A stretch of 64,000 bases of DNA from Octopus vulgaris (Eukaryota). Under the pieces are notes generated by a model. That model did no database searches. It was not told where the DNA came from and worked only from the letters and a program-made list of their open reading frames with translations. Positions 2,131-61,083 of the stretch are shown piece by piece. The stretch spans positions 17,546,001-17,610,000 of the forward strand of contig OX597820.1 of the NCBI GenBank assembly GCA_951406725.2, read 5' to 3'. Each line of letters begins with the position of its first letter. Position 1 is the stretch's first letter. A program made the position numbers and the translations under genes.

Positions 2131-2619
2131 TAATATGTAAACAAGGAGTTTATTCTCATATATATTGCTTCTTAGGAAACATTAACGTATACAGTCATAT
2201 CTACACATTTCCAAATTACATATATTTAGTAAGACCATTGTATGTTTCTGTTATCATCGTCATAAAAACTATTGATTTTACTATTTATAATTAATCATTT
2301 TTTTTTTTTTTTACTATATCGATCTGTTTACTTTGTTCAGCTACGATTTTCTTTTGTACAGTACATTATTATAACCGACTGAAAATAAAGAACAAAATAA
2401 CGGCACACAATCATAATCGATAAACAAAAATGTCACATGTAATAAACGATATCGTATATATGAATTATCAAGTCAACCTCAATATAAGCATAGAATAATG
2501 TTTGTTTGATTGGTTTCGAATAAAACAAAGGAAATTTATTTTCTAAATTGAATCAACTGTTTATTTTCATACACGTACAACCACAAACATACCGACATAC
2601 AATAGGTATACTATATATG

Positions 2620-2665
<46 letters not shown>

Positions 2666-2691
2666 GGTGTACACTCAAAGGTGTATATGTA

Positions 2692-2728
<37 letters not shown>

Positions 2729-2776
2729 GTATGTATGCGTGTATATATATATACATATATATATATGTAAGTATGC

Positions 2777-2812
<36 letters not shown>

Positions 2813-3723
2813 GCACGTGTATGTGTGTATTTATGTATATATATATACTGTGCGTGTGTATGTATGCGTGTATGTGTGTGTGTTGTAGGTGTATGTATGT
2901 ACATATTTTGTGTACGGATGTGTATAAGGGTATAGTATTGTTATTATTACTGTTGTTATTATTATTATTATTATTAGCAGCAGTAGTAGTAGTAGTAGTA
3001 GCAGTAGTAGTAGTAGTATATAGGAGTGGCAGCGCACCTAATTCTAACCTTTGATGAACGCAGCTGGATACGTATATGTGTTTGTGTGCGTGTGTATGTG
3101 TGTGTTAAAAAATATAATTTTATTTAAAAAACATAAGCCGTCCCCGGGAGATGTGTCACCACTCACCCTACTCAATACTCCCAATATACAAAACCTACAT
3201 ACAAAACCTACCAGGTACACCTCCTCACTGTCTGGCTTTTTTTTTTATCACCACCAATCCGTCATTACACCCTGAGTATTGTTTCAGGAAGTGAGCTGAG
3301 AAAAATAGATTCAAAATGGCAGCCAGTTCAGTAGGCAGAGTCACGTCTGAATAACTGAGAATTTTGAATATATATGGTTATATAAGTGTTTAAATATGTA
3401 TCAATACAGAAAATATTTTACGCACTCTGGATAAATTGTAACAATTTTTTTAAATAGAAGTAAGCACACTAATATAAAATTCCTCTCATCATTTATTTCA
3501 CCAGCGGCGAAGAATTTTAAAAATTATTCTTCTTCTCTGAAGCCCTTTCAGCGTATAAACTTTGTCGTTGCTTTGAATTATTTTGCATTATTAGAATTTT
3601 TTATTGCGCATGCTGTTCATGCTACATGTGCATACATACATATATACATACTTACACGCATATAGGTACATATATACATACACATATAGACACATACATA
3701 CGCATATACGTGTTTATTCATAC

Positions 3724-3759
<36 letters not shown>

Positions 3760-3761
<2 letters not shown>

Positions 3762-3905
3762 TCTTTTACTCTTATACATGTTTCAGTCATTTGAGTGTGG
3801 CCATGCTAGGGCACCGCCTTTAGTCGAGCAAATCGACCCCAGGACTTATTCTTTGTAAGCCTAGTACTTATTCTATCGGTCACTTTCACCGAACCACTAC
3901 AGTTA
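3760..3905 (-). mobile_element. SINE-A 3' half
   Basis: Reverse complement of the family-A tail. Confidence 0.75.
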
Positions 3906-3913
3906 CCACACAG

Positions 3914-3964
<51 letters not shown>

Positions 3965-4068
3965 TTAAAAGGGCGGGCAACAATATATATATAAGGATAT
4001 ATATATATATGCATATAGAGTGTATACTCATATAAATATATATATATATATATATATAAGAGTGTATA

Positions 4069-4116
<48 letters not shown>

Positions 4117-4117
4117 A

Positions 4118-4171
<54 letters not shown>

Positions 4172-4461
4172 ATATACATCTGTTAGGACGATTTATACCA
4201 ATACATATATATACATAAGAAGATATTTCTAAGGATTAAGATGTGCTGAGGAAGGTAAGAACTTTGAGCCAAACCAGAAACCGGTCCACATATATACCTA
4301 TTCCATTAAATATATAGTTTTATGCTATAATGGTATGTGAGAGATCTTATTATGTTCGTTCGCCTGTATACCGTTGTCTCAGTTATTTTCTGTGTAATTT
4401 TCAGTGTAATACTTTTGTACGTGATTGTATGCATATGTTTGTATGTGTGTTAGTGTGAGTA

Positions 4462-4534
<73 letters not shown>

Positions 4535-4922
4535 GTGGGGTACTGTAAATTCGAGAGAGTGATAAAGCTCTTTTGTCATAGGTGATATTTAGGGTTGAAA
4601 ATTAGCATGCAGGATACGAGACTCCATAATGATGTGAATTAATGGAAATTATTCAGTTAATGGATGTAATTAAAAATGAAGTTTCAGCAATGAAAATTTT
4701 AAGCAAATTAAAACAAGATATTATTAGCAATAAACATATGCTCATCCTCAGGTTGAAGTCAACATTTTGAACAATATAAAATCAAAATTATTCTCAGTGG
4801 TAAAAGTATAAGTGAGACCTATCTTCAACCATTACCTTTTGTGTTGATACATTAAATATATTATCGAAAATTATAGAATATAAATTCAAACGTATGCACA
4901 GTGATATGCAATATTTTTCAAC

Positions 4923-5200
4923 CCTAGCCAGGCTCATGGGCCCGGTTGCCCGGTTTCTGTGGCGTATGTGCCTCCCCCCCCCCCCCCAGCTGGACGGGGC
5001 GCCAGTCCATTGTAGTGTTATTCAAGAAACAGGAAGAAAGCTCGAGAGAAAGTTGGGGCGAAAGAGTACAACAGGGGTCGCCACCACCCGCTGCCGGAGC
5101 CTCGTAGAGCTTTAGGTTCTTTCGCTTAATAAACACACACAACGCCCGGTCTGGGAATCGAAACCGCGATCCTCCGACCGCGAGTCCACTGCCCTAACCA
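4923..5200 (-). mobile_element. SINE family C (tRNA-like head, possibly Arg-derived; G-run tail)
   Basis: Reverse complement of 51640-51935. Confidence 0.8.
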
Positions 5201-5699
5201 TTAAATATATTATCTAGTAAGATAGAACATAAAATCAGACGTATGCTCAGTGACATGGAATAAACAATTCAAGAACACAAATAATTTTGTAATACTACAG
5301 CTTATGAAGGTGGCCAGCTGGCAGGTTCATTAACAAGCCGGATAATATGCTTAGCGGCAATTCGTCCGTCTTTATGTTCTGAGTTTAAATTCCACCGGAT
5401 TCGACTTCCGCAAAAATAAGTACCAATTAAACACTGGAGTTTAAACAATGTAATCGACCTACCTCCTCCAACCTTGCAAACCTGGTGCTAGAATTTGAAA
5501 CTCGTATTACAACATATCTAAGCCATGCGAATCTCATACACATAGTGTATGTCCTCTTCCCTTGCTTGTACGAAATCCAGTGAGGACTTACTAAATCCAA
5601 TCAAAGTTTATGCCAAATTCATCATTTAGTGAATGTAAGAATCATACATAAGCTGCTTTAAGTTACATGTTTAGGTAATGCAATAATTGAACCGGCAAA

Positions 5700-5968
5700 G
5701 GCGGCGAGCTGGCAGAAACGTTAGCACGCCGGGCGAAATGCGTAGCCGTATTTTGTCTGCCGTTACGTTCTGAGTTCAAATTCCGCCGAGGTCGACTTTG
5801 CCTTTCATCCTTTCGGGGTCGATAAATTAAGTACCAGTTACGCACTGGGGTCGATGTAATCGACTTAATACCTATGTCTGTCCTTGTTTGTCCCCTCTAT
5901 GTTTAGCCCCCTGTGGGTAATAAAGAAATAGGTATTTCGTCTGCTGTTACGTTCTGAGTTCAAATTCC
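5700..5968 (+). mobile_element. SINE family B (head ggcggcgagctggcagaaacgttagc, B-box gagttcaaattcc)
   Basis: About 15 loci in the window, often multimeric. Confidence 0.8.
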
Positions 5969-6539
5969 AGATTACCACGACCTGGTAATCTTCTTAATGT
6001 TTAAACATAAAACTTAGAGTAGCATACATATAACTCCTGTATTCATTAAATGATGCTTATCCATCGCGTGATTTGTTACTTTTTTGCTGAACGAGCAAAC
6101 AAGAGAAGCGCACTCAACACACACACAAAAGCTCATAAATACAATATAATATTCAAAGGTGGATATATATATATACATATACAAGATAAGAAAATGGAGA
6201 AATACATCTAAATCAAATATCAATTACCAGATTAGATGTATTTCTCCATTTTCTTATCTTGTATTAGTAATTTGTGGTAAATCATTTTACCTTTGCCCAT
6301 ATAATACAGTAAATGAATTGATTGTATCGCAATCATTAACATTTATGTATTAACTTTGTTGGGTACTTCACTAGCAGTATATTGGATATATCTTATCCTA
6401 TGGAGGGTTGCATTTACAACCCCTATCTCAATTTCTATATATACATATATATATTCATACACTCATGCACATAATTACACGCACACACTTACATACACAT
6501 ATTCATATACACATACATACATACATACATACATACACA

Positions 6540-6619
<80 letters not shown>

Positions 6620-7108
6620 GTATTTACTTTCCAATCCTTTTAAGATTCTGAAGTGTCAAATCAACGTGTTATGGGCTTATACGAAATGATTTATATCTAA
6701 TGATTTATATCTAATTCTAGCAATTTGAATAGGAACACAGGGTTAATTAGCTGTGAAAACATTTAATTAATCTTTATCTTTGATATTCATCAATTAATAC
6801 AAATAGGAAGATGAGTAGAAGGAGAGGTCTACCCGCTGAAATTAATGCAAAAGCTTCCAAGAGTAGAAATAAAATTACATTATTACCACGAATGGAAATA
6901 AAAGGATTTTTCTAACGAGCGTTAACTGAAGCGTCAAAATTTTGGAACTACAATATATGGAATAATAAATGTATTTGCTCTTTCGCTTACTTCAGTCATT
7001 TGATTGAAGCCCATGCTGGAGCATCATTACTCTTTTGACTCATGGATAGGTTTACGGGGACATAAACTAAAAAAAGACACGTTATGTATATATATATATA
7101 TATATATA

Positions 7109-7458
7109 TTTAAAAAGGAGATGTGGAACACGAGTTGTGATATATAAAAAAGGAAATGAAGAAAATGCTGACAAAATAATTTAAGTAATTTAAGTAATTT
7201 AATTAGGTGAGAGTTCTTTTTACCGGTTGCGCATTTGTTATGCTTATCAAAAGATATTTTTTAAAGAGAGATTAGAGTTCCTTTCTGATAGATTTTTTCC
7301 TCTTATAAGAGGAAAAAATCTATCAGAAAAGAACTCTAATCTCTCTTTAAAAGATATCTTTTGATAAGCATAACAAATGCGCAACCGGTAAAAAGAACTC
7401 TCACCTAATTAAATTACTTAAATTACTTAAATTATTTTGTCAGCATTTTCTTCATTTC

Positions 7459-7470
<12 letters not shown>
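7109..7470. mobile_element. Foldback element, family F1 copy 1: about 330-bp loopless palindrome (7141-7470) plus about 32-nt one-sided tail, in (TA)n
   Basis: Centre tctta|taaga at 7305/7306. The arms differ at only about 2 internal positions. Each arm has a hammerhead-like motif (plus strand 7361-7395). Flanked by (TA)n on both sides. Confidence 0.85.
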
Positions 7471-7507
<37 letters not shown>

Positions 7508-7519
7508 AAACTTTTTTTT

Positions 7520-7702
7520 TATTCTTTTACGTGTTTCAGTCATTTGACAGCGGCCATGCCGGAGCACCTCCTTTAGTCGATTTAGATTTCTTCTTTGTAA
7601 GCCTAGTACTTCTTTTATCGATCTCTTTTGCCGAACCGCTAAGTTACGGGGACGTAAACATACCAACATCGATTGTCAGGCGATGGTGGTGGTGACACAC
7701 AC

Positions 7703-18558: not shown

Positions 18559-19399
18559 AACAGCCCAAATTGTATGTGAAACACAAGGATCGCTGTCAAG
18601 AAAATCTATGATAATGACAGCCTCTGGCTAGAAGTCATCTTCATCTTCATGGCACAATATGAACGCACGTGGTTAATCAGTATGCAGCTGTAACTTTCCG
18701 CGATATGTGATCGTGTGTGGCCGCCTTTGACATGCAATCTACGAAAATTCTGGAGTATATATATATATATTCCTATATATACGTTGGTTACATATTTCTT
18801 GTCTATCGACTTTTCTTTCCTTGATGTGGTATTCTATTCTCGCTTTTCATCCTTCAGAGAATGCAAAGAGGTATCAGTGGCGAGGTGGGGCTCGTGGGGT
18901 CCGAATAGAACCCGCCTTCCACTCCATCCGTAATGTCTTCCGGTCTGTTCCATCATTCGTTTTTATATTTTATTGTATTAAATTATTAAAGTCACATTTT
19001 TATTTCCCCATTCGATGTATCTGACCCCAAAATCAAATGTATTGTGCCCTCTATGTTGGCCCCTTGTGGGTAATAAAGAGATTATACTAATCAGAACTAG
19101 TCCCCGTTAATTCCCAATGCTTTCTTGGACACTAGACTTCATTTTGAAATACAATTTCTTCGGTGTGTGATATTTGGACAGAAAATGTGAGCAATATTTG
19201 GAAGCAAAATCAATTGAAATTAGACATTCATTGAATATGATAACAATTGGCAATACGGTTTCGGGCCCAAGACGGTTCTCATTTCTACTCGATTTCTTCT
19301 TACTCTGCTGTTTTCTTACTTTTGATGATATGTAGCTGTTTATTTCTGAAACAACCTTTTGAACCTGGAATATAAGCAAATTTAGTAACACTTGATATT

Positions 19400-19778
19400 A
19401 GTTTCAAATTTTGGCACAAGGCCAGCAGGTTCGTGGGAGTCGGGTAAATCGGTTACATCGACCTTACTGTTTAACTGGTACTTATTTAATCGACCTCGAA
19501 ACGATGAAATGCAAAGTCGACCTCGGCAGAATTTGAACTCAGAACGCAGCGGCAGACGAAATATCTATTTCTTTACTACCCTCAAGGGGCTAAACACAGA
19601 GAGGACAAACGGATTAAGTCGATTATATCGACCCCAGTGCATAACTGGTACTTATTTAATCGACCCTGAAAGGATGAAAGGCAAAGTCTACCTCGGTGGA
19701 ATTTGAACTCGGAACGTAACGGCAGACGAGATACCGCTAAGCATTTCGCCCGGCGTGCTAACGTTTCTGACAGCTTGC
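19400..19778 (-). mobile_element. SINE-B dimer
   Basis: One head plus a repeated body unit. Confidence 0.8.
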
Positions 19779-20621
19779 TGAACTATAACTCTTGATATTA
19801 ATTGCAGCCAATGCAACCCTCTGTGATAGCTGTCCGTCTTTTATTGTCCTAGTAAATGAAGTCCGTCAGATTTCTACAAATCTTCATGTAAACCAGGAGA
19901 TAATTGAATTCATGTTTGCAAAAAACTAGAATGAAATACCTGATGTGCATTTGTATTGTTTAGGGATGCCATAAAGGTAAGCTTGACCCAAAAGCTTCAA
20001 ATTCCGCCGATGTCGATTTTTGCCTTTCATCTTTTCGGGGTTGATAAATTTAATACCAGTTGCGTACTGGCGTCAATCTAATCGACTGGCGCCCTCCCCC
20101 AAAATTTCGAGCCGTGTACCTAGAGTAGTAAAGAATATAAAAAGCTTTATATAGATTGTCAGGAGTTTAAGACAGATGAATACAAATCTAATATTTTTAT
20201 AGACAACACTTCTAGACAAAGATTTGGTTATTCAAGGCTAAATACATTAACTGTCAGCCATGTAATCCTTATCTATGGGAATAGATTTAGGGATTAACAA
20301 AGAAAAGGTTGAAGAATAAAGATATAACCGAATGTAAGTAGTACCTGGAAATTCAGAAAATGCTTCTCAAGATTTATTGGCTTCATAAAATACGAAGAAC
20401 TGAATGCTTAAAAGGGCAACACTACCAAAGAATCTTAATCCTTTTATCCCAGCCATAAACGATATGTGTGCAAGTGGATCTCGTGTAAAAATACTGTGGA
20501 TTACAAATACGAAAAATATTAAAAAGACAGGGATTTAAGCTTCAGAGGTGTGATGTAGCAACAAAATGACAATATTTTATTAGCGTTACATTTCTTATCT
20601 TTTATTATTTCAATCACTAGA

Positions 20622-21250
20622 AGGCGACGAGCTGGCAGAATCGTTAGCACGCCGGGCGAAATGCGTAGCTGTATTTCGTCTGCCGTTACGTTCTGAGTTC
20701 AAATTCCGCCGCGGTCGACTTTGCCTTTCGTCCTTTCGGGGTCGTTTAAATAAGTACCAGTTACACACTGGGGTCGATATAATCGATTTAATCCGTTTGT
20801 CTGTACTTGTTTGTTCTCTCTGTGTTTAGCCCCTTGTGGGTAGTAAACAAATAGGTATTACGCCTGCCGCTACGTTCTGAGTTCAAATTCAGCCGAGGTC
20901 GACTTTGCCTTTCATCCTTTCGGGGTCGATTAAATAAGTACCAGTTACGCACTGGGGTCGATATAATCGAGGTAATCCCTTGTCTGTCCTTGTTTGTCCC
21001 CTCTATGTTTAGCTTCTTGTGGGCAATAAAGAATAAAGAATAGTTAGCACGCTTGACAAATTGCTTAGTAGCATTTTTTCCGACTTCACGTTCTGAATTC
21101 AAATTGCGCCAAGGTCGACTTTGCCTTTTATCCTTTCGAGATCGATAAAATAAGTACCAGTAATTTACTTCACCCATCCTTCAAAATCCATGTATTTTAC
21201 TTCACCCATCCCACAAAATTGCTGGCCTTGTGCCAAAATTAGAAACCTTT
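20622..21250 (+). mobile_element. SINE-B multimer (three units)
   Basis: gttctga(g/a)ttcaaatt recurs at about 20690, 20874 and 21090. Confidence 0.8.
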
Positions 21251-22191
21251 ATTTCAGTCATTGAAAGATCGCAAACTGGCAAAATCGTTAGCACGCCGTA
21301 TAAAATGTTTAGCGTCATTTCGTCCGTTTTTCTGGTCTAAATGAACATTTTTAGTCAACTAGAATGTCATCCTTTCGGATTCAGTCGTTAAAATAAGAAG
21401 CAGTTGAGCATCTGGGGGTTAATGTAATCAACTTGCTCCTTCCCCGAACAATTTCAGACCCTGTGCTTATTGCAGGACGGATCATTTCAGTCATTGGATT
21501 GCGACCATGTTGAGATACCACCTTTTGAAAGGTTTAGTTAAACAAATCAAGCACAGTAATACTTCAAAATTTTAAATTCTAGTACTTATTTTACGAGTGT
21601 CATTCGCAGGATTGTTATGTTACGGGGACATAAATAAACCAACAGAGGTTGTCAACTGGTAGAATACAAACACAAATCTACATATTCCTGCTGATATGAT
21701 AAATGAAGGAATTCCACGCGGTTTCCGTCTGTCAAATTCATCCACAAAGCATTGGATGGGCCGGACTATAGCGAAAGACGTTGTCCTAGGTGGCATACAC
21801 TGGGATTGAACCCGAAACAACGTGATTGCCTACGCTGAGCGTAATGTTTGAATTTATGGGAAAATCTGTGTTTGTGTGTGTGATCCGATATTTATAGTAT
21901 TGTCTCTAAGTATTAAGAAAATTTATTGTGATTTTCTTGTCCTGATGATGAAATAAACAAAATATTATTGTATAATATTGAAGGATATGTATTGTGTGTG
22001 TGTGTGTGTGTATGTGTGTGGAACGTAAAAATGTAGTATTAATATATTTTTTTATTCACTTTCAGAATTAATCAACGGAGCCAGTTTATTTCTTCCCATA
22101 CAAGATGATACCAGTGCACTCTTTAGTTGAGATGTATGTATGTATATATATGTACATATATATATATCACACATACATGTGAACATATGTT

Positions 22192-22237
<46 letters not shown>

Positions 22238-22302
22238 TATGTTTATATATACATATATATGTTTATATATACATATATATAGATACATATAAATATTTAT
22301 AT

Positions 22303-22346
<44 letters not shown>

Positions 22347-22348
22347 AT

Positions 22349-22423
<75 letters not shown>

Positions 22424-23321
22424 ATGACGTTCTTATTATTGCATACATGGATTATACAAATATATACATTCTCTCTTTAGCATCGTTGTTATTGCTGAAC
22501 GAATAATTTCTCAAACCTTCAATAAAAAAATTCATTTGAAAACTTTATCTTTCTTAATTTATTTCTTCGTTCTTGCCAATGTTTTGATATATGTTTTTTC
22601 CTTTCATAAAAATATTTAAATCAGCATTTATAGTTATAAATCTATATTCTAGAAGCTTTAACATTACGACAATTTTGTACATATTACACAGATTGTTTGC
22701 TATTGATATGGAAGAAAAGAAAACAACTTTTATAAAAATATTAGCAAGATAGAGAAATATACCAAATATATATATATGTTGTAGGGATTCGTACGTTTTT
22801 AAAAGTGTCATAATTTCTTAAGCTAAAATCGAGTTATGAGATTGAAACGGAAGGGGAAAATATTAAATTGAAATTTTGAAAAGTATTTTTATAAAACTAG
22901 GTTTGAGCGATAAAATTTTGGAAGACATTTTCTGGCTAAATTTTTCTGTTTTTATTTATTATTTTCCACTTTATTTTGATTGTAATTCAAAATCCAAATG
23001 TTAAGATAGATTTTTTTTGTGGCCTTAATATTTCTTTCAGATTATATATATATTTTCTACTTTTATGAATTCCATATTTCAAAGTGAGGAACTGTCACAG
23101 AAAAAATGAAATTGAGCCCGGATTCTTTTAAATATATTAGTTTCTTCCGATTAGAGAGCTTTTACAGAGATAAGGGTAATTGGATTTGCTGAGGCCTTTA
23201 CACCTACGTTAAAAATATATCTGAAAGAATTGCTTTCAAATGAGGATTGAAACCGCTACTAAGAGCTTACTGTATGCTTTAAAGATTTGTCAATATTATT
23301 CAAACAATATTCCTATATATA

Positions 23322-23962
23322 TTTCTTTACTACCCACAAGAGGCTAAACACAGAGGGGACAAACAAGGACAGACAAACGGATTAAGTCGATTACATCGAC
23401 CCCAGTGCGTAACTGGTACTTTATTTATCGACCCCGAAAGGATGAAAGGCAAAGTCGACCTCGGCAGAATTTGAACTCAGAACGTAACGACAGACGAAAT
23501 ACCTATTTCTTTATTACCCACAAGGGGCTAAACACAGAGGGGACAAACAAGGACAGACAAAGGGATTAAGTCGATTACATCGATCCCAGTGCGTAACTGG
23601 TACCTAATTCATCGACTCCGAAAGGATGAAATGCAAAGTCGACCTCGGCGGAATTTGAACTCAGAACGTAACGGCAGACGAAATACGGCTACGCATTTCG
23701 CCCGGCGTGCTAACGTTTCTGCTAGCTCGCCGCCTTCCAATATTCCTATATATACAGGCTGACAGAAACGTTAGCCCGCTGGGCGAAGTGCTGAGTAGTA
23801 TTTCGTCTGTCTTTACGTTGAGTTCAAATTCCGTCGAGGTCGATTTTGCCTTTCATCATATCGAGGTCGATAAATTAAGTATCAGTTGTGTACTGGGTTC
23901 GACCTAATCGACTGGCCTCCTCCCCTAAAATGTCGGGCCTTGTCACTAGAGTAGAAAGGAAT
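23322..23962. mobile_element. SINE-B dimer (-, 23322-23735) and monomer (+, 23757-23962) back to back
   Basis: Both are bounded by copies of atattcctatatata. Confidence 0.8.
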
Positions 23963-24094
23963 ATATTCCTATATATACATTCGTTACATATTTCTTGCCT
24001 ATCGGCTTTTCTTTCCTTGATGTCGTATTCTATTCTCGCTTTTCATCCTTCAATCTTTCTCCCTTCCCTCTCTCCAACATAATATTCTTTTCTA

Positions 24095-24697
24095 CTCTAT
24101 GTACAAGGCCCGAAATATTTGGGGAGGGAACCAGTCGATGACGTCGTCCACGGTATGCAACTGGTACTTAATTTATCGGCCCCGAAACGATGAAAGGCAA
24201 AGTCGATCTCGGTGGAATTTGAACTCAGAACATAGACAGACGAAATACCGCTAAGAATTTCGCTCGGCGTGCTGACGTGTCTTATTTCTTTACTGCCCAC
24301 AAAGGACTAAACATAGAGGGAACAAACAAGGACAGACAAACGGATTAAGTCGATTACATCGACCCCAGTGTGTGACTGGTGCTTTATTTATCGACTCCGA
24401 AAGGATGAAAGGCAAAGGCAACCTCGGCGGAATTTGAACTCACAACGTAACGGCAGACGAAATACCTATTTCTTTATTACCCACAAGGGCCTAAACACAG
24501 AGGGGACAAACAAGGACAGACAAAGGGATTAAGTCGATTACATCGACCCCAGTGCGTAACTGGTACTTATTTAATCGACCCCGAAAAGATGAAAGGTAAA
24601 GTCGACCTCGACGGAATTTGAACTCAGAACGCAGCGGCAGACGAAATACCCGTAAGCATTTCGCCCGGCGTGCTAATGTTTCTGCCAGCCCGCCGCC
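24095..24697 (-). mobile_element. SINE-B multimer (three units)
   Basis: Three ggaatttgaactca units. Confidence 0.8.
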
Positions 24698-24822
24698 TTT
24701 TCCCAACACAATATTTCAATATTATTCTTTCCTCTCGCATTCCCCCACGCTTTTCGACGCTGCATGTATACCTACAGACGCACAGACATTTATGTGTACA
24801 CACACACACGTACACACACATA

Positions 24823-58027: not shown

Positions 58028-60189
58028 CAAATATATCGATTGGATAATTGATTTATGGATTGATGCATCTGTTAACAGACCTCAGAAATTCTCCTTGCAT
58101 CTCTAACCTAAACGAATTCCATTCCTTATTTATGGCAAACTAGAAATTATTATTCCCGACTACTTTGTCATCTAACTATAGTCTATAGATTAGAGAACGT
58201 TATTACCTTTTCACAGTGGGTGAACATCAACTGAAGAATGTTTTTAGTTGATAGACAATATTTTAGTCAAAACAGAACAAAGGTCATGGTTGATGTATTT
58301 ATTTCTTTGCAGTAGGCCTTCTTGAATTTTCTCTCTTCATTTTTCTTTTACTCGTTTCATGCATTGCATGGGAGTTCTGCTGAGGCCCCATTGAAAAGGG
58401 TTTAGTTGAACAAACCGCAAGCTGGTACTGATTTTTAAGCCTGGTACTTATTTCATCGGTCTGTTTTCGCTGCACCGCTAAGCTACGGGGGCGTAAAATA
58501 ACCAATAACTGTAGTCAATCGGTGTGGGTGTACAAACACAAGTATAAAGATATAAACACATAGACATACGCACAATAATCGATTATTGGCTGCCCGACAT
58601 CCATTCGTATATCTACGCTCACTATAGTAGAAATGTGGTTTTATTTCCTTGCTTAGTCAATCATTTCTGGTGTAATCAGCGAAAAGTTGTTTTCACATTC
58701 GGATATTTCAATATGGTATTGTCCCAAAGAGAAACAAAAGTTATCCAAATCCGGAGTATACAATAACATTGTGTTCCACAGCAGTGTTGCATTTAATTGC
58801 GAACATTAATGCGGCGAGTCGAGGAATGAAATTGGTATTAATATAAGATCACTTATTCGTGAAAATCAAGAATCGAACAATTCATTTCCTGAAGATTCTG
58901 CAATATTAATAAGGATCTTATGAAATGAGATAACTGAATGGAGATATTTATTAAAGAATCGGGATGTTACAAGAAATAGTACAAGTATAATGTTACAATC
59001 AATGCTACTTGACAAGGCTTTCTGTTATATATTTCAATATGTCGTGGAAATAGCCTCGCGTCTTTGAAATAGAAATTCTGAAAGACCGATATTTCTGAAA
59101 ATTATCCTGTTTTGGTCATCAGTTCCTGACTACAAAACATTCTTATAAAACAAACGGCGAATAAGAACCACCAACATATTATGGTCTCTTATTTACTGTA
59201 TGTCTGGTGAGCTGTGTGTGCTATATCTAATAAAATAAAACAATTGCTTTGTCTGTTTCGACGTACATTAATCATGGTAAGCCTCGTGTGTTTGCATAAA
59301 ATAGCCTAACATATATAGTTTCAAAGGGAGACTGTTAAAGAGTTTAATAAATGATATAAAACCATTCAGAAAATAAAAATATACATGAAAAACATCATTG
59401 CATTCAAACTACTCAAAATAACTTTCTCACTTTCTCCTTATGATGCAGTTATAAATTACGAGTACAATGGGAAATCACGGGAAGGTGAAATAAAATTCAT
59501 GCATCACAAATCTCAAATTGAAATTGAACATAAATAATAGCTACCACTTTCATTTGACGGTGCACCGGTGTTATATTCACCTGCTAGGTTGTATGATTAA
59601 CCGTAGGAAGTAAAGATGAATATAATTTTCTCAAGCTGATATGTACTTGGCAGTCTCTTTCGTGAATTCCTGCTCACAGGCTTTAGATACTGAACAATAA
59701 ATTTAATATTAATAAAATATTTAGTATTTATAAGATAATTTGTGCATCCATCCAATTAATAGCTCAGAGTGATACGAAATATACAGAAGAGAAGTTTGAC
59801 TTGTGGCCAGTTAAACACACACAAACACACACATACACACACAGAGGGTATGGTACTAATATCAAAGTGGGGGCACAGAATCTCTTGGAAACAATTACTT
59901 CAGGTGTAGATTTAAAACATATCTAAAACAACCAAAAGGAAGCCAAGCAATGGTAACTTTGATGGGAATTATTAAATACCTACTCGAATTCGCTAAATTC
60001 TAAACGGAGGTTGTTACATTTGTTTGCGGTTGTAATATTTGGGTTTATGGAGAGAAAAGGGTACTTTTTGCAAATGTAATGAAAATGGAACTCAAACCAG
60101 AGAGAGATGAAATGTAGCCACAAGAGTCTCCGTTTCCAACACATTTAGCTACAGCCCCAGCAACGATATTCACATAGGAATCAGTGCAT

Positions 60190-60400
60190 TCTTTTACTCT
60201 TTTACTTGTTTCAGTCATTTGACTGCGGCCATGCTGGAGCAACGCCTTTAGTCGAGCAAATCGAACCCAGGATTTATTCTTTGTAAGCCTAATACTTATT
60301 CCATCGGTCTCTTTAGCCGAACCGCTAAGTTTCGGGGATGTAAACACACCAGCATCGGTTGTCAAGTGATGTTGGTAGGACAAACACAGACACGCAAACA
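60190..60400 (-). mobile_element. SINE-A 3' half, interrupted in its microsatellite by foldback F1 copy 2
   Basis: Family-A tail; a short continuation tacgatgggctt reappears at about 60852. Confidence 0.8.
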
Positions 60401-60408
60401 CACACACA

Positions 60409-60467
<59 letters not shown>

Positions 60468-60827
60468 TTAAAAAAAGGAGATGTCGAACACGAGTGGTGA
60501 TATATAAAAAAGGAAATGAAGAAAATGCTGACAAATAATTGAAGTAATTTAAGTAATTTAATTAGGTGAAAGTTCTTTTTACCGGTTGCGCATTTGTTAT
60601 GCTTATCAAAATATAAAAAGAGAGATTAGAGTTCCTTTCTTATAGAATTTTTCCTCTTATCGGAAAGATAAGAGGAAAAATTCTATAAGAAAGGAACTCT
60701 AATCTCTCTTTATATTTTGATAAGCATAACAAATGCGCAACCGGTAAAAAGAACTTTCACCTAATTAAATTACTTAAATTACTTCAATTATTTGTCAGCA
60801 TTTTCTTCATTTCCTTTTTTTTATATA
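60468..60827. mobile_element. Foldback element, family F1 copy 2: palindrome 60501-60827 with 5-nt loop plus the same tail
   Basis: Same sequence family as 7109-7470. Centre cctcttatc-ggaaa-gataagagg. It lies in the (CA)n(TA)n tract of a SINE. Confidence 0.85.
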
Positions 60828-61083
60828 TATATATATATATACATACATATATACGATGGGCTTATATATATATATAAGAGAGATGTCCACGTAGTGGACA
60901 TCTATTATGCTAGAAGTAGATCCACTATGGTCTTACCACTAAGAAAGGAATGTTCTTGGGAACATTTTATGTGTATGTAATATAATTTTTCTGAATCTTC
61001 AGATTTTAATATGCTGGACCACTGATTTTAAATTGATATTAATCGAATTAATATTCAATATTTTTACCCTTATTATTTTTAAG

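What the first reader, a model, noticed from the sequence alone, without database searches (positions are those of the whole stretch)
7109..7470. Foldback family F1: the two arms co-vary within each copy, so the palindrome is rebuilt or homogenised per insertion
Seen: this copy and the one at 60468-60827 differ at six or more sites (acaaaata/acaaata, tttaag/ttgaag, gagag/gaaag, an indel, ctgata/cttata, gattt/gaatt). Every difference appears in both arms of its own copy, while arms within a copy differ at only 1-2 internal sites. The centres also differ (no loop versus a 5-nt loop). Both copies carry the same 32-nt tail on one side only and sit in (TA)n. Inference: a single-arm template is copied and snapped back during integration, like the inverted pseudo-LTR plus tail of Penelope, rather than a MITE moving as a fixed hairpin.
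Basis: partly seen in the sequence, partly recalled or inferred. Interest (0 to 1): 0.75.

Follow-up and report, generated by a model that had tools for sequence, protein, structure and literature searches.

The report
Penelope stubs centred on transcription start
This mirror-image repeat is the shortest footprint of a known kind of jumping gene (a Penelope-like retrotransposon): two short copies of the element's end sit head to head, were likely each written from the same RNA by a separately primed copying step, and meet at the point where that RNA is predicted to begin.

Summary
Both palindromes are real and their arms co-vary as described. F1 is not a MITE: the arm is the 3' end of the pseudo-LTR of a 4.5-kb Neptune-like Penelope element (RT + GIY-YIG), and the tail is the next 32 nt of its 5' UTR. 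Five of the six differences between the two copies are subfamily markers. Across the genome, arms share their source haplotype (45/45, 54/54), most private mutations sit in one arm only (38 versus 8), so palindromes are rebuilt per insertion, not homogenised. Single-strand snap-back fits poorly: 83 of 88 pairs carry exactly one tail and either arm can be the longer, as two separately primed cDNAs would give. Centres lie about 30 nt behind a TATA-like box, and a 50-nt deletion subfamily appears to move the break with the box, so the centre is likely the transcription start. The layout and two start sites are in print; this scan noted start-site centres and two-ended priming before on other DNA. 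The deletion test is the new part. No RNA ends or long reads were seen.

The parts
7087..7109 (.). (TA)n target, tail side of copy A
7110..7139 (-). tail of copy A: the 30-32 nt that follow the pseudo-LTR in the parent's 5' UTR; lies between the two inferred priming sites
7140..7305 (-). tail-bearing arm of copy A (element sense on the minus strand), subfamily A
7305..7306 (.). centre of copy A, no loop; 2-3 nt inside the predicted transcription start
7306..7463 (+). tail-less arm of copy A; ends at the internal T-run/TA site
7361..7392 (+). hammerhead-like motif (U3-A8 core, palindromic helix III, 2-bp helix I, C at position 13), mirrored at 7219-7250 on the minus strand; predicted cut after 7390; activity untested
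7464..7503 (.). (TA)n target, other side of copy A
60447..60467 (.). (TA)n target, tail side of copy B
60468..60499 (-). tail of copy B, subfamily-B alleles
60500..60661 (-). tail-bearing arm of copy B, subfamily B
60662..60666 (.). 5-nt insert at the seam, likely templated from the arm 7-11 nt away; the same insert recurs on either arm in other copies
60667..60822 (+). tail-less arm of copy B (hammerhead-like motif starts at 60717)
60823..60841 (.). (TA)n target, other side of copy B

Best explanation
F1 palindromes are stub insertions of a Neptune-like Penelope retrotransposon, made of two short copies of its pseudo-LTR end joined head to head; each arm is likely a separately primed cDNA from the same RNA, and the centre is predicted to be the RNA's 5' end. 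Shown: parent element, two fixed outer ends 32 nt apart, one of each per insertion, shared source haplotype, a break hot spot 28-37 nt behind the TATA-like box. Inferred steps: (1) the pLTR promoter starts an RNA about 30 nt behind the box; (2) the protein, likely a dimer, cuts both strands of a (TA)n run; (3) one cut end primes at the end of the pLTR, the other 32 nt further 3' at the end of the tail; (4) when this happens at the first, 5'-proximal pair of sites, both cDNAs run off the RNA after 155-190 nt; at a later pair (3' pLTR) they give the long, unevenly truncated arms; (5) the two free cDNA ends are joined through 1-6 nt of self-complementarity, often with short templated inserts, by the RT or a host end-joining polymerase; (6) arms then mutate independently.
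For: Parent: arm runs on into pLTR and ORFs; RVT_1 and GIY-YIG above Pfam cut-offs; motifs GxKF, DKG, CX4CxxC. Tail = start of 5' UTR; 2058 arm copies but 16 tail-to-ORF1 junctions. One tail in 45 of 46 centre-picked loci (the other is a related family) and in 83 of 88 head-to-head pairs, 15 of 15 long ones; free choice would give about half. Solo arms end at either site (15 tail, 21 none). Longer arm: tail-less 8, tailed 7; long pairs 8 and 5, 2 equal. Commonest centre points either way, 8:8. Haplotype concordance 45/45, 54/54, 46/49, 36/48, 56/59 against 30.6, 27.9, 25.9, 7.7, 38.1 permuted (76 pairs, unscorable ones left out). Break positions in 96 of the first 100 listed arms: of 44 non-B arms that break behind the box, 33 at 26-40 and 4 at 21-25; 7 of 9 intact-type B arms at 31-38; 16 short B arms break at a second site that is 29-33 nt behind the box of the deletion subfamily in 15 cases; 16 of 33 B arms against 2 of 63 others break there (p 1.7e-7). 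In print: two RT start sites flanking the tail, both strands cut and extended, predicted dimer (PMC11167929, parts 1-2 read).
Against: No RNA 5' end was seen: only contigs were on offer. Short B arms are too short to show the deletion, so their parent is inferred (224 deletion junctions; 8 of 16 ORF1-bearing copies show it, none is intact B); L227 pairs such a short arm with an intact-type long arm, and the second site holds an ATAT that could be a microhomology hot spot. 5 of 88 pairs are not one-tailed (4 both, 1 none). Later deletions could shorten either arm of short pairs. 8 private substitutions are shared. An arm's own partner is strictly its nearest neighbour in only 22 of 88 cases, tie 21, not 45, as the family is young and near-identical. 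One marker (9-nt repeat number) is not concordant beyond chance (42/52 against 39.8). Part of the pair set came from best-hit lists and is biased to subfamily A.
Confidence: 0.72

Rival explanations
1. One cDNA, primed at the tail end, folds back at its 3' end and copies itself; the second strand stops or is trimmed at the internal TA site.
For: Near-perfect centres with 0-8 nt loops and templated inserts; arms share haplotype; 8 shared private substitutions.
Against: The tail-less arm is longer in 8 of 15 short and 8 of 13 long unequal pairs, by kilobases in the long ones; tail-only pieces joined to full tail-less arms (L179, L187); centre polarity 8:8; arms of two haplotypes in L118; solo arms primed at the tail-less site.
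Confidence: 0.12
2. Self-priming on an antisense transcript, as proposed for rotifer Penelope elements, builds the head-to-head repeat at RNA level before integration.
For: Proposed in PMC3846280 (passages) for the same layout; explains symmetry and shared haplotype.
Against: The centre follows a sense-strand TATA-like box; long pairs have unrelated breakpoints on the two arms; in vitro a sense RNA suffices for both start sites (PMC11167929). Antisense transcription was not tested here.
Confidence: 0.06
3. Two different RNA molecules, one per protein subunit, are copied; they usually come from the same source locus.
For: L118 (two haplotypes) and perhaps L227; no strand displacement needed.
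Against: With many active haplotypes discordant arms are rare (0 of 45, 0 of 54 at the two cleanest markers); the strict one-tail rule needs a further reason.
Confidence: 0.08
4. A MITE or foldback DNA transposon that moves as a fixed hairpin, with arms kept alike by gene conversion; or an assembly artefact.
For: Size, AT richness, TA flanks; some copies show internal re-duplications that could be assembly errors.
Against: Asymmetric ends, variable centres within one haplotype, an RT-coding parent, solo and long forms, mostly one-arm private mutations, inverted joins in other runs' contigs.
Confidence: 0.02

Closest known systems
Inverted 5'-truncated pLTR plus optional 30-40-bp tail of endonuclease-bearing Penelope-like elements (Arkhipova et al. 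2013, PMC3846280, passages; Craig et al. 2021, PMC8557442, abstract, sections 3, 11, 15 and passages)
   Same: Head-to-head inverted copy, palindromic junctions, tail at one end only, TATA and initiator-like motifs in the pLTR, microsatellite targets.
   Different: Here both arms are minimal stubs with a fixed inner end; the passages read explain the tail by endonuclease resolution and the palindromes by antisense self-priming, and do not tie the junction to the start site.
Poseidon of the green anole, PAc (Frangieh et al. 2024, PMC11167929; parts 1 and 2 of 4 read, supplements not opened)
   Same: Two internal RT start sites near the pLTR-ORF junction bounding the tail; both DNA strands cut and extended; AT-rich target; hammerhead cut not needed.
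   Different: Other clade; the parts read leave the later steps open and give no counts of tail pairing or of inner ends. Here both start sites look like T-run plus TA, so microhomology with the target is possible, whereas PAc starts without homology.
Neptune clade PLEs (definition from PMC8557442; two-ORF killifish Neptune, PMC12602865, passages)
   Same: RT then CX2-5CxxC linker then C-terminal GIY-YIG; (TA)n target; an upstream ORF.
   Different: Clade not tested by tree; ORF1 is about 430 aa and overlaps ORF2 in another frame.
L1 twin priming (recalled, no call)
   Same: Both cut strands prime on one RNA and give a 5' inversion.
   Different: In L1 the two cDNAs cover different parts of the RNA; here they cover the same part, offset by 32 nt.

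Membership tests
EN+ Penelope-like element (parent) | RT plus C-terminal GIY-YIG endonuclease | tested here: met
   (L068 ORF2: RVT_1 265-442, GIY-YIG 691-778); 2220 relatives at E<=1e-30 among 7994 scored
EN+ Penelope-like element (parent) | partial tandems forming pLTRs, adjacent inverted 5'-truncated copy | tested here: met
EN+ Penelope-like element (parent) | 30-40-bp tail at one end | tested here: met
   83 of 88 pairs
EN+ Penelope-like element (parent) | hammerhead ribozyme in the pLTR | tested here: inconclusive
   no Rfam hit, no canonical core, none with a 4-bp helix I; a U3-A8 variant with C13 and 2-bp helix I in each pLTR and arm, descriptor fitted after the fact
EN+ Penelope-like element (parent) | single ORF | tested here: not met
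   two overlapping frames with the same offset in 18 of 20 long loci, 1 shifted, 1 unscored; upstream ORFs are known as an option
EN+ Penelope-like element (parent) | CCHH motif in the endonuclease | tested here: inconclusive
   the two cysteines between GIY and YIG found; the histidines seen by eye only, my pattern missed them
Neptune clade | CX2-5CxxC linker before the endonuclease; GxKF and DKG motifs (exclude Hydra) | tested here: met
   definitions
Neptune clade | (TA)n target bias | tested here: met
Neptune clade | RT phylogeny with Neptune rather than Nematis | not tested
   no labelled reference sequences were held
MITE / foldback DNA transposon | symmetric terminal inverted repeats at both ends | tested here: not met
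   tail on one side only
MITE / foldback DNA transposon | fixed internal structure inherited with the arms | tested here: not met
   nine centres in nine subfamily-B copies
MITE / foldback DNA transposon | cognate transposase-coding parent | tested here: not met
   parent codes RT and GIY-YIG
MITE / foldback DNA transposon | target-site duplication of fixed length | not testable with these tools
   flanks are (TA)n; no empty sites held

The most novel reading that the evidence does not exclude
Penelope-like elements integrate by tandem twin priming: one RNP copies the same sense RNA twice from two sites 32 nt apart, one cDNA on each cut strand, and the inverted pLTR and one-sided tail of the whole class are the direct print of this; the stubs are strong-stop products whose seam maps the promoter's start site, and a natural 50-nt promoter deletion moves the seam to keep 30 nt from the TATA box.
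Probability: 0.55. Interest if true: 0.72.

Novelty: new member of a known kind. Interest (0 to 1): 0.52.

Why it matters
How Penelope-like elements, the sister group of telomerase, make inverted repeats and tails is stated as open in the papers read. This family gives a countable footprint that separates sense-RNA double priming from snap-back and antisense self-priming, and two predicted start sites (intact and deletion promoter) that one 5' RACE experiment can check. In practice such stubs would be filed as MITEs by inverted-repeat finders, and their seams could be used to map start sites of elements without RNA data.

Tried and rejected
Transcription start from public runs: only contigs were held; laying three guessed-RNA runs and one DNA run on the pLTR-ORF1 junction showed no start. 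Bridging the two window loci with independent sequence: no listed piece spans them; long reads not available. Cap-derived extra G at the inner ends: two of four apparent cases are explained by microhomology with a tail piece; dropped as evidence. Ribozyme cut as cause of the centre: the predicted cut is about 85 nt from it and 253 of 258 arms read through. My first count of a strong stop (56 of 370) was biased by the 20-mer used and missed most arms (2058); replaced by the survey. Nearest-neighbour test gave weak resolution. Rfam gave only microsatellite-driven matches below gathering scores. The bacterial promoter scan is not suited. RNA fold of the predicted 5' end showed nothing that marks the two sites. 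A-to-I editing as source of shared variants: no A>G or T>C excess among 8. Literature: searches found no paper that ties PLE palindrome centres to the start site or counts tail pairing; subscription papers (such as Arkhipova 2006, recalled only) and supplements of PMC11167929 and PMC8557442 were not seen and may hold this. The bioRxiv retrozyme preprint and PMC13282606 were seen as passages and add nothing on it.

Full report
Observation. An alignment of the four arms shows all six listed differences in both arms of their own copy, two internal mismatches between the arms of copy A and one short indel between those of copy B. Copy A has no loop, copy B a 5-nt loop. The tail lies on one side only; it differs between the copies at two bases and in its A-run. 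No third copy lies in the window. The genome is 2.8 Gb in 227 contigs, an animal rich in microsatellites; that it looks like an octopus is my inference and also stands in earlier AI notes.

Family and parent. A search with one arm gave 1394 candidates, 40 scored. The 30 loci fetched held palindromes with different centres, solo arms with and without tail, and two loci in which the arm runs on into further sequence. These lead to a 4.5-kb element: pLTR, tail, ORF1 of about 430 aa, ORF2 of 784 codons stop to stop, pLTR (the output was cut in the middle). ORF2 has RVT_1 and GIY-YIG domains above their Pfam cut-offs, ORF1 no family, and the GxKF, DKG and CX4CxxC motifs, which by the definitions in PMC8557442 point to Neptune or Nematis and away from Hydra and Naiad; the (TA)n target favours Neptune. 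No tree was made for this. The F1 arm is the last 155-165 nt of the pLTR and the tail is the next 32 nt, which in full copies lead on to ORF1. In a palindrome both 3' ends face outwards. A mid-arm 20-mer has 2058 exact matches, the tail-to-ORF1 junction 16: almost every copy ends at one of two sites, before or after the tail.

Co-variation. Copy B carries the alleles of subfamily B, as do full-length parents such as L068; only one of the six differences is private to copy A. So the contrast between the two window copies mostly reflects two sources. The genome-wide test is clearer. Among 76 one-tailed pairs the arms agree at six of seven markers far above permutation, for example 45 of 45 and 54 of 54 against 30.6 and 27.9, also within subfamily A; the seventh, a 9-nt repeat count, does not (42 of 52 against 39.8) (unscorable pairs left out per marker). 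On a tree of 42 pairs (2 of 44 dropped for large one-arm deletions) the tail/non-tail label needs 34 changes against 27.5 when shuffled, and the B clade holds 9 arms of each kind. Its nine copies have nine different centres, so the hairpin is not inherited as a unit. In 44 pairs, 38 private substitutions lie in one arm and 8 in both; median distance within a copy is 2, between copies 8-9; an arm's partner is strictly nearest in only 22 of 88 cases, tied in 21. This fits copying from one source at insertion and later independent drift, not steady homogenisation.

One cDNA or two. Of 46 loci picked by the centre pattern (the first 50 listed of 126 centres, less three second centres of the same loci and one upstream duplicate), 45 have the tail on exactly one side; the other belongs to a related family. 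Over all loci held, 83 of 88 head-to-head pairs have one tail, 4 two, 1 none; all 15 long pairs have one. Solo arms and arms with intact upstream sequence end at either site (15 and 14 with tail, 21 and 18 without), so both sites prime on their own. A single tail-primed cDNA that folds back cannot give a tail-less arm longer than itself, yet that arm is the longer in 8 of 15 asymmetric short pairs and in 8 of 13 unequal long pairs, often by 2-3 kb. The commonest 7-nt centre points to either arm equally (8:8). L118 has arms of two known haplotypes. Later deletion could mimic the short cases but hardly the long ones. The seams often hold short inserts copied from nearby arm sequence, sometimes several times over, which reads as priming and release at the join. 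PMC11167929 (parts 1-2 read) shows for an anole Poseidon two RT start sites bounding the tail and extension of both target strands, and leaves the later steps open. The counts here are what that biochemistry would leave in a genome if each cut strand uses one site.

The centre. Upstream of the usual break lies a TATA-like box, with the A of a TCAG initiator-like motif at position 31 from its first T, and CCAAT- and E-box-like motifs further up (motif names recalled). My first count (56 of 370 arm starts with intact upstream sequence) was biased, so I surveyed arms by the mid-arm 20-mer: 96 of the first 100 places (the 4 left out are long arms of the deletion subfamily). Of 63 non-B or unassigned arms, 19 run through the box and 44 break behind it: 33 at positions 26-40, 4 at 21-25, 7 later. 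Of 33 B arms, 8 are long arms of a subfamily whose pLTR lacks about 50 nt including the initiator but keeps the box (224 junctions), 9 are intact-type (7 break at 31-38), and 16 are short and break at a second site, which is position 29-33 of the deletion promoter in 15 cases. Only 2 of the 63 other arms break in that stretch although several have an equally self-complementary AT run there (p 1.7e-7). The simplest reading is that the break follows the box, as a transcription start would. Against this: the short arms cannot show the deletion themselves, and L227 joins one to an intact-type long arm. For it: 8 of the 16 ORF1-bearing copies show the deletion promoter and none an intact B promoter. 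A hammerhead-like motif with the U3-A8 covariation known from PMC4209133 (passages) lies in every arm (descriptor fitted after the fact, C at position 13), but its predicted cut is about 85 nt from the centre and 253 of 258 arms read through it. No RNA end was observed.

Artefact check. Contigs of three DNA-type runs from three studies hold head-to-head joins of the arm with other seams, so the structure does not depend on this assembly. Long reads over the two loci were not available. The upstream near-duplicate of copy A has an extra internal repeat, which may be an assembly or allele difference.

Mechanism. Shown: parent, two outer ends, one of each per insertion, shared source, break hot spot tied to the box. 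Inferred: sense RNA starting at the hot spot, double-strand cut in (TA)n, two primings on one RNA, run-off at the 5' end, end joining of the two cDNAs. Confidence that F1 is a per-insertion PLE product is about 0.97, in this full mechanism about 0.72.

Comparison and novelty. It works like, and is a member of, the known class of PLE insertions with inverted truncated pLTR and one-sided tail (PMC3846280, passages; PMC8557442). It is not a MITE. Eight paper searches found no text linking the seam to the start site, but subscription papers and supplements were not seen. Earlier notes of this scan report head-to-head Penelope stubs in this genome and start-site centres and two-ended priming in other genomes; none covers this sequence. 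These are AI notes and no support; my reading was on record before I saw them. What this family adds is the size of the counts and a natural promoter deletion that appears to move the seam. Verdict: new member of a known kind, interest 0.52.

Noticed in passing
L033 1-5631 (G000:C7 just upstream of the window) against window 2266-7687: A 5.4-kb near-duplicate (96-98% identical) of the window's start, followed by a gap; its F1 copy has an extra 70-nt internal repeat. Uncollapsed haplotype or young tandem duplication.
   Followed up: partly
L087 1352-1732, L203 1001-1385, L190 near 1200: A second foldback family in (TA)n whose inner ends resemble the F1 start; likely stubs of a related PLE with the same start-site rule.
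   Followed up: partly
L031 243-499: A third, unrelated 257-nt palindrome next to (TA)n with one extended side.
   Followed up: no
L068 1659-2951 and 2885-5236: ORF1 (about 430 aa, no Pfam family) overlaps the RT-endonuclease frame by about 22 codons with the same offset in 18 of 20 long loci; programmed frameshift or splicing is possible.
   Followed up: partly
L068 1440-1470 and 5920-5950: The subfamily with the most intact-looking coding copies has lost about 50 nt of its promoter including the initiator-like motif, yet has spread (224 junctions).
   Followed up: yes
L097, L099, L104, L116, L125: Palindromes with a second centre or re-duplicated arm piece; repeated template switches or assembly errors.
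   Followed up: partly
L143, L151, L152, L157: Arms whose inner end lies at the TATA-like box itself, joined to (TA)n or folded there; likely microhomology with the target.
   Followed up: partly
L289/L290: A copy with a short tandem of pLTR end, tail and ORF1 start joined to an inverted arm.
   Followed up: no
window 7520-7700, 60180-60390 and many other places; 19382-24766: Two abundant short interspersed repeat families with TA/CA tails flank both F1 copies and fill the window; one has a 184-nt internal repeat.
   Followed up: no
P0025, P0062, P0063, P0065, P0077: Close relatives of the PLE protein are filed under bacterial gill symbionts, likely host sequence in those assemblies.
   Followed up: no
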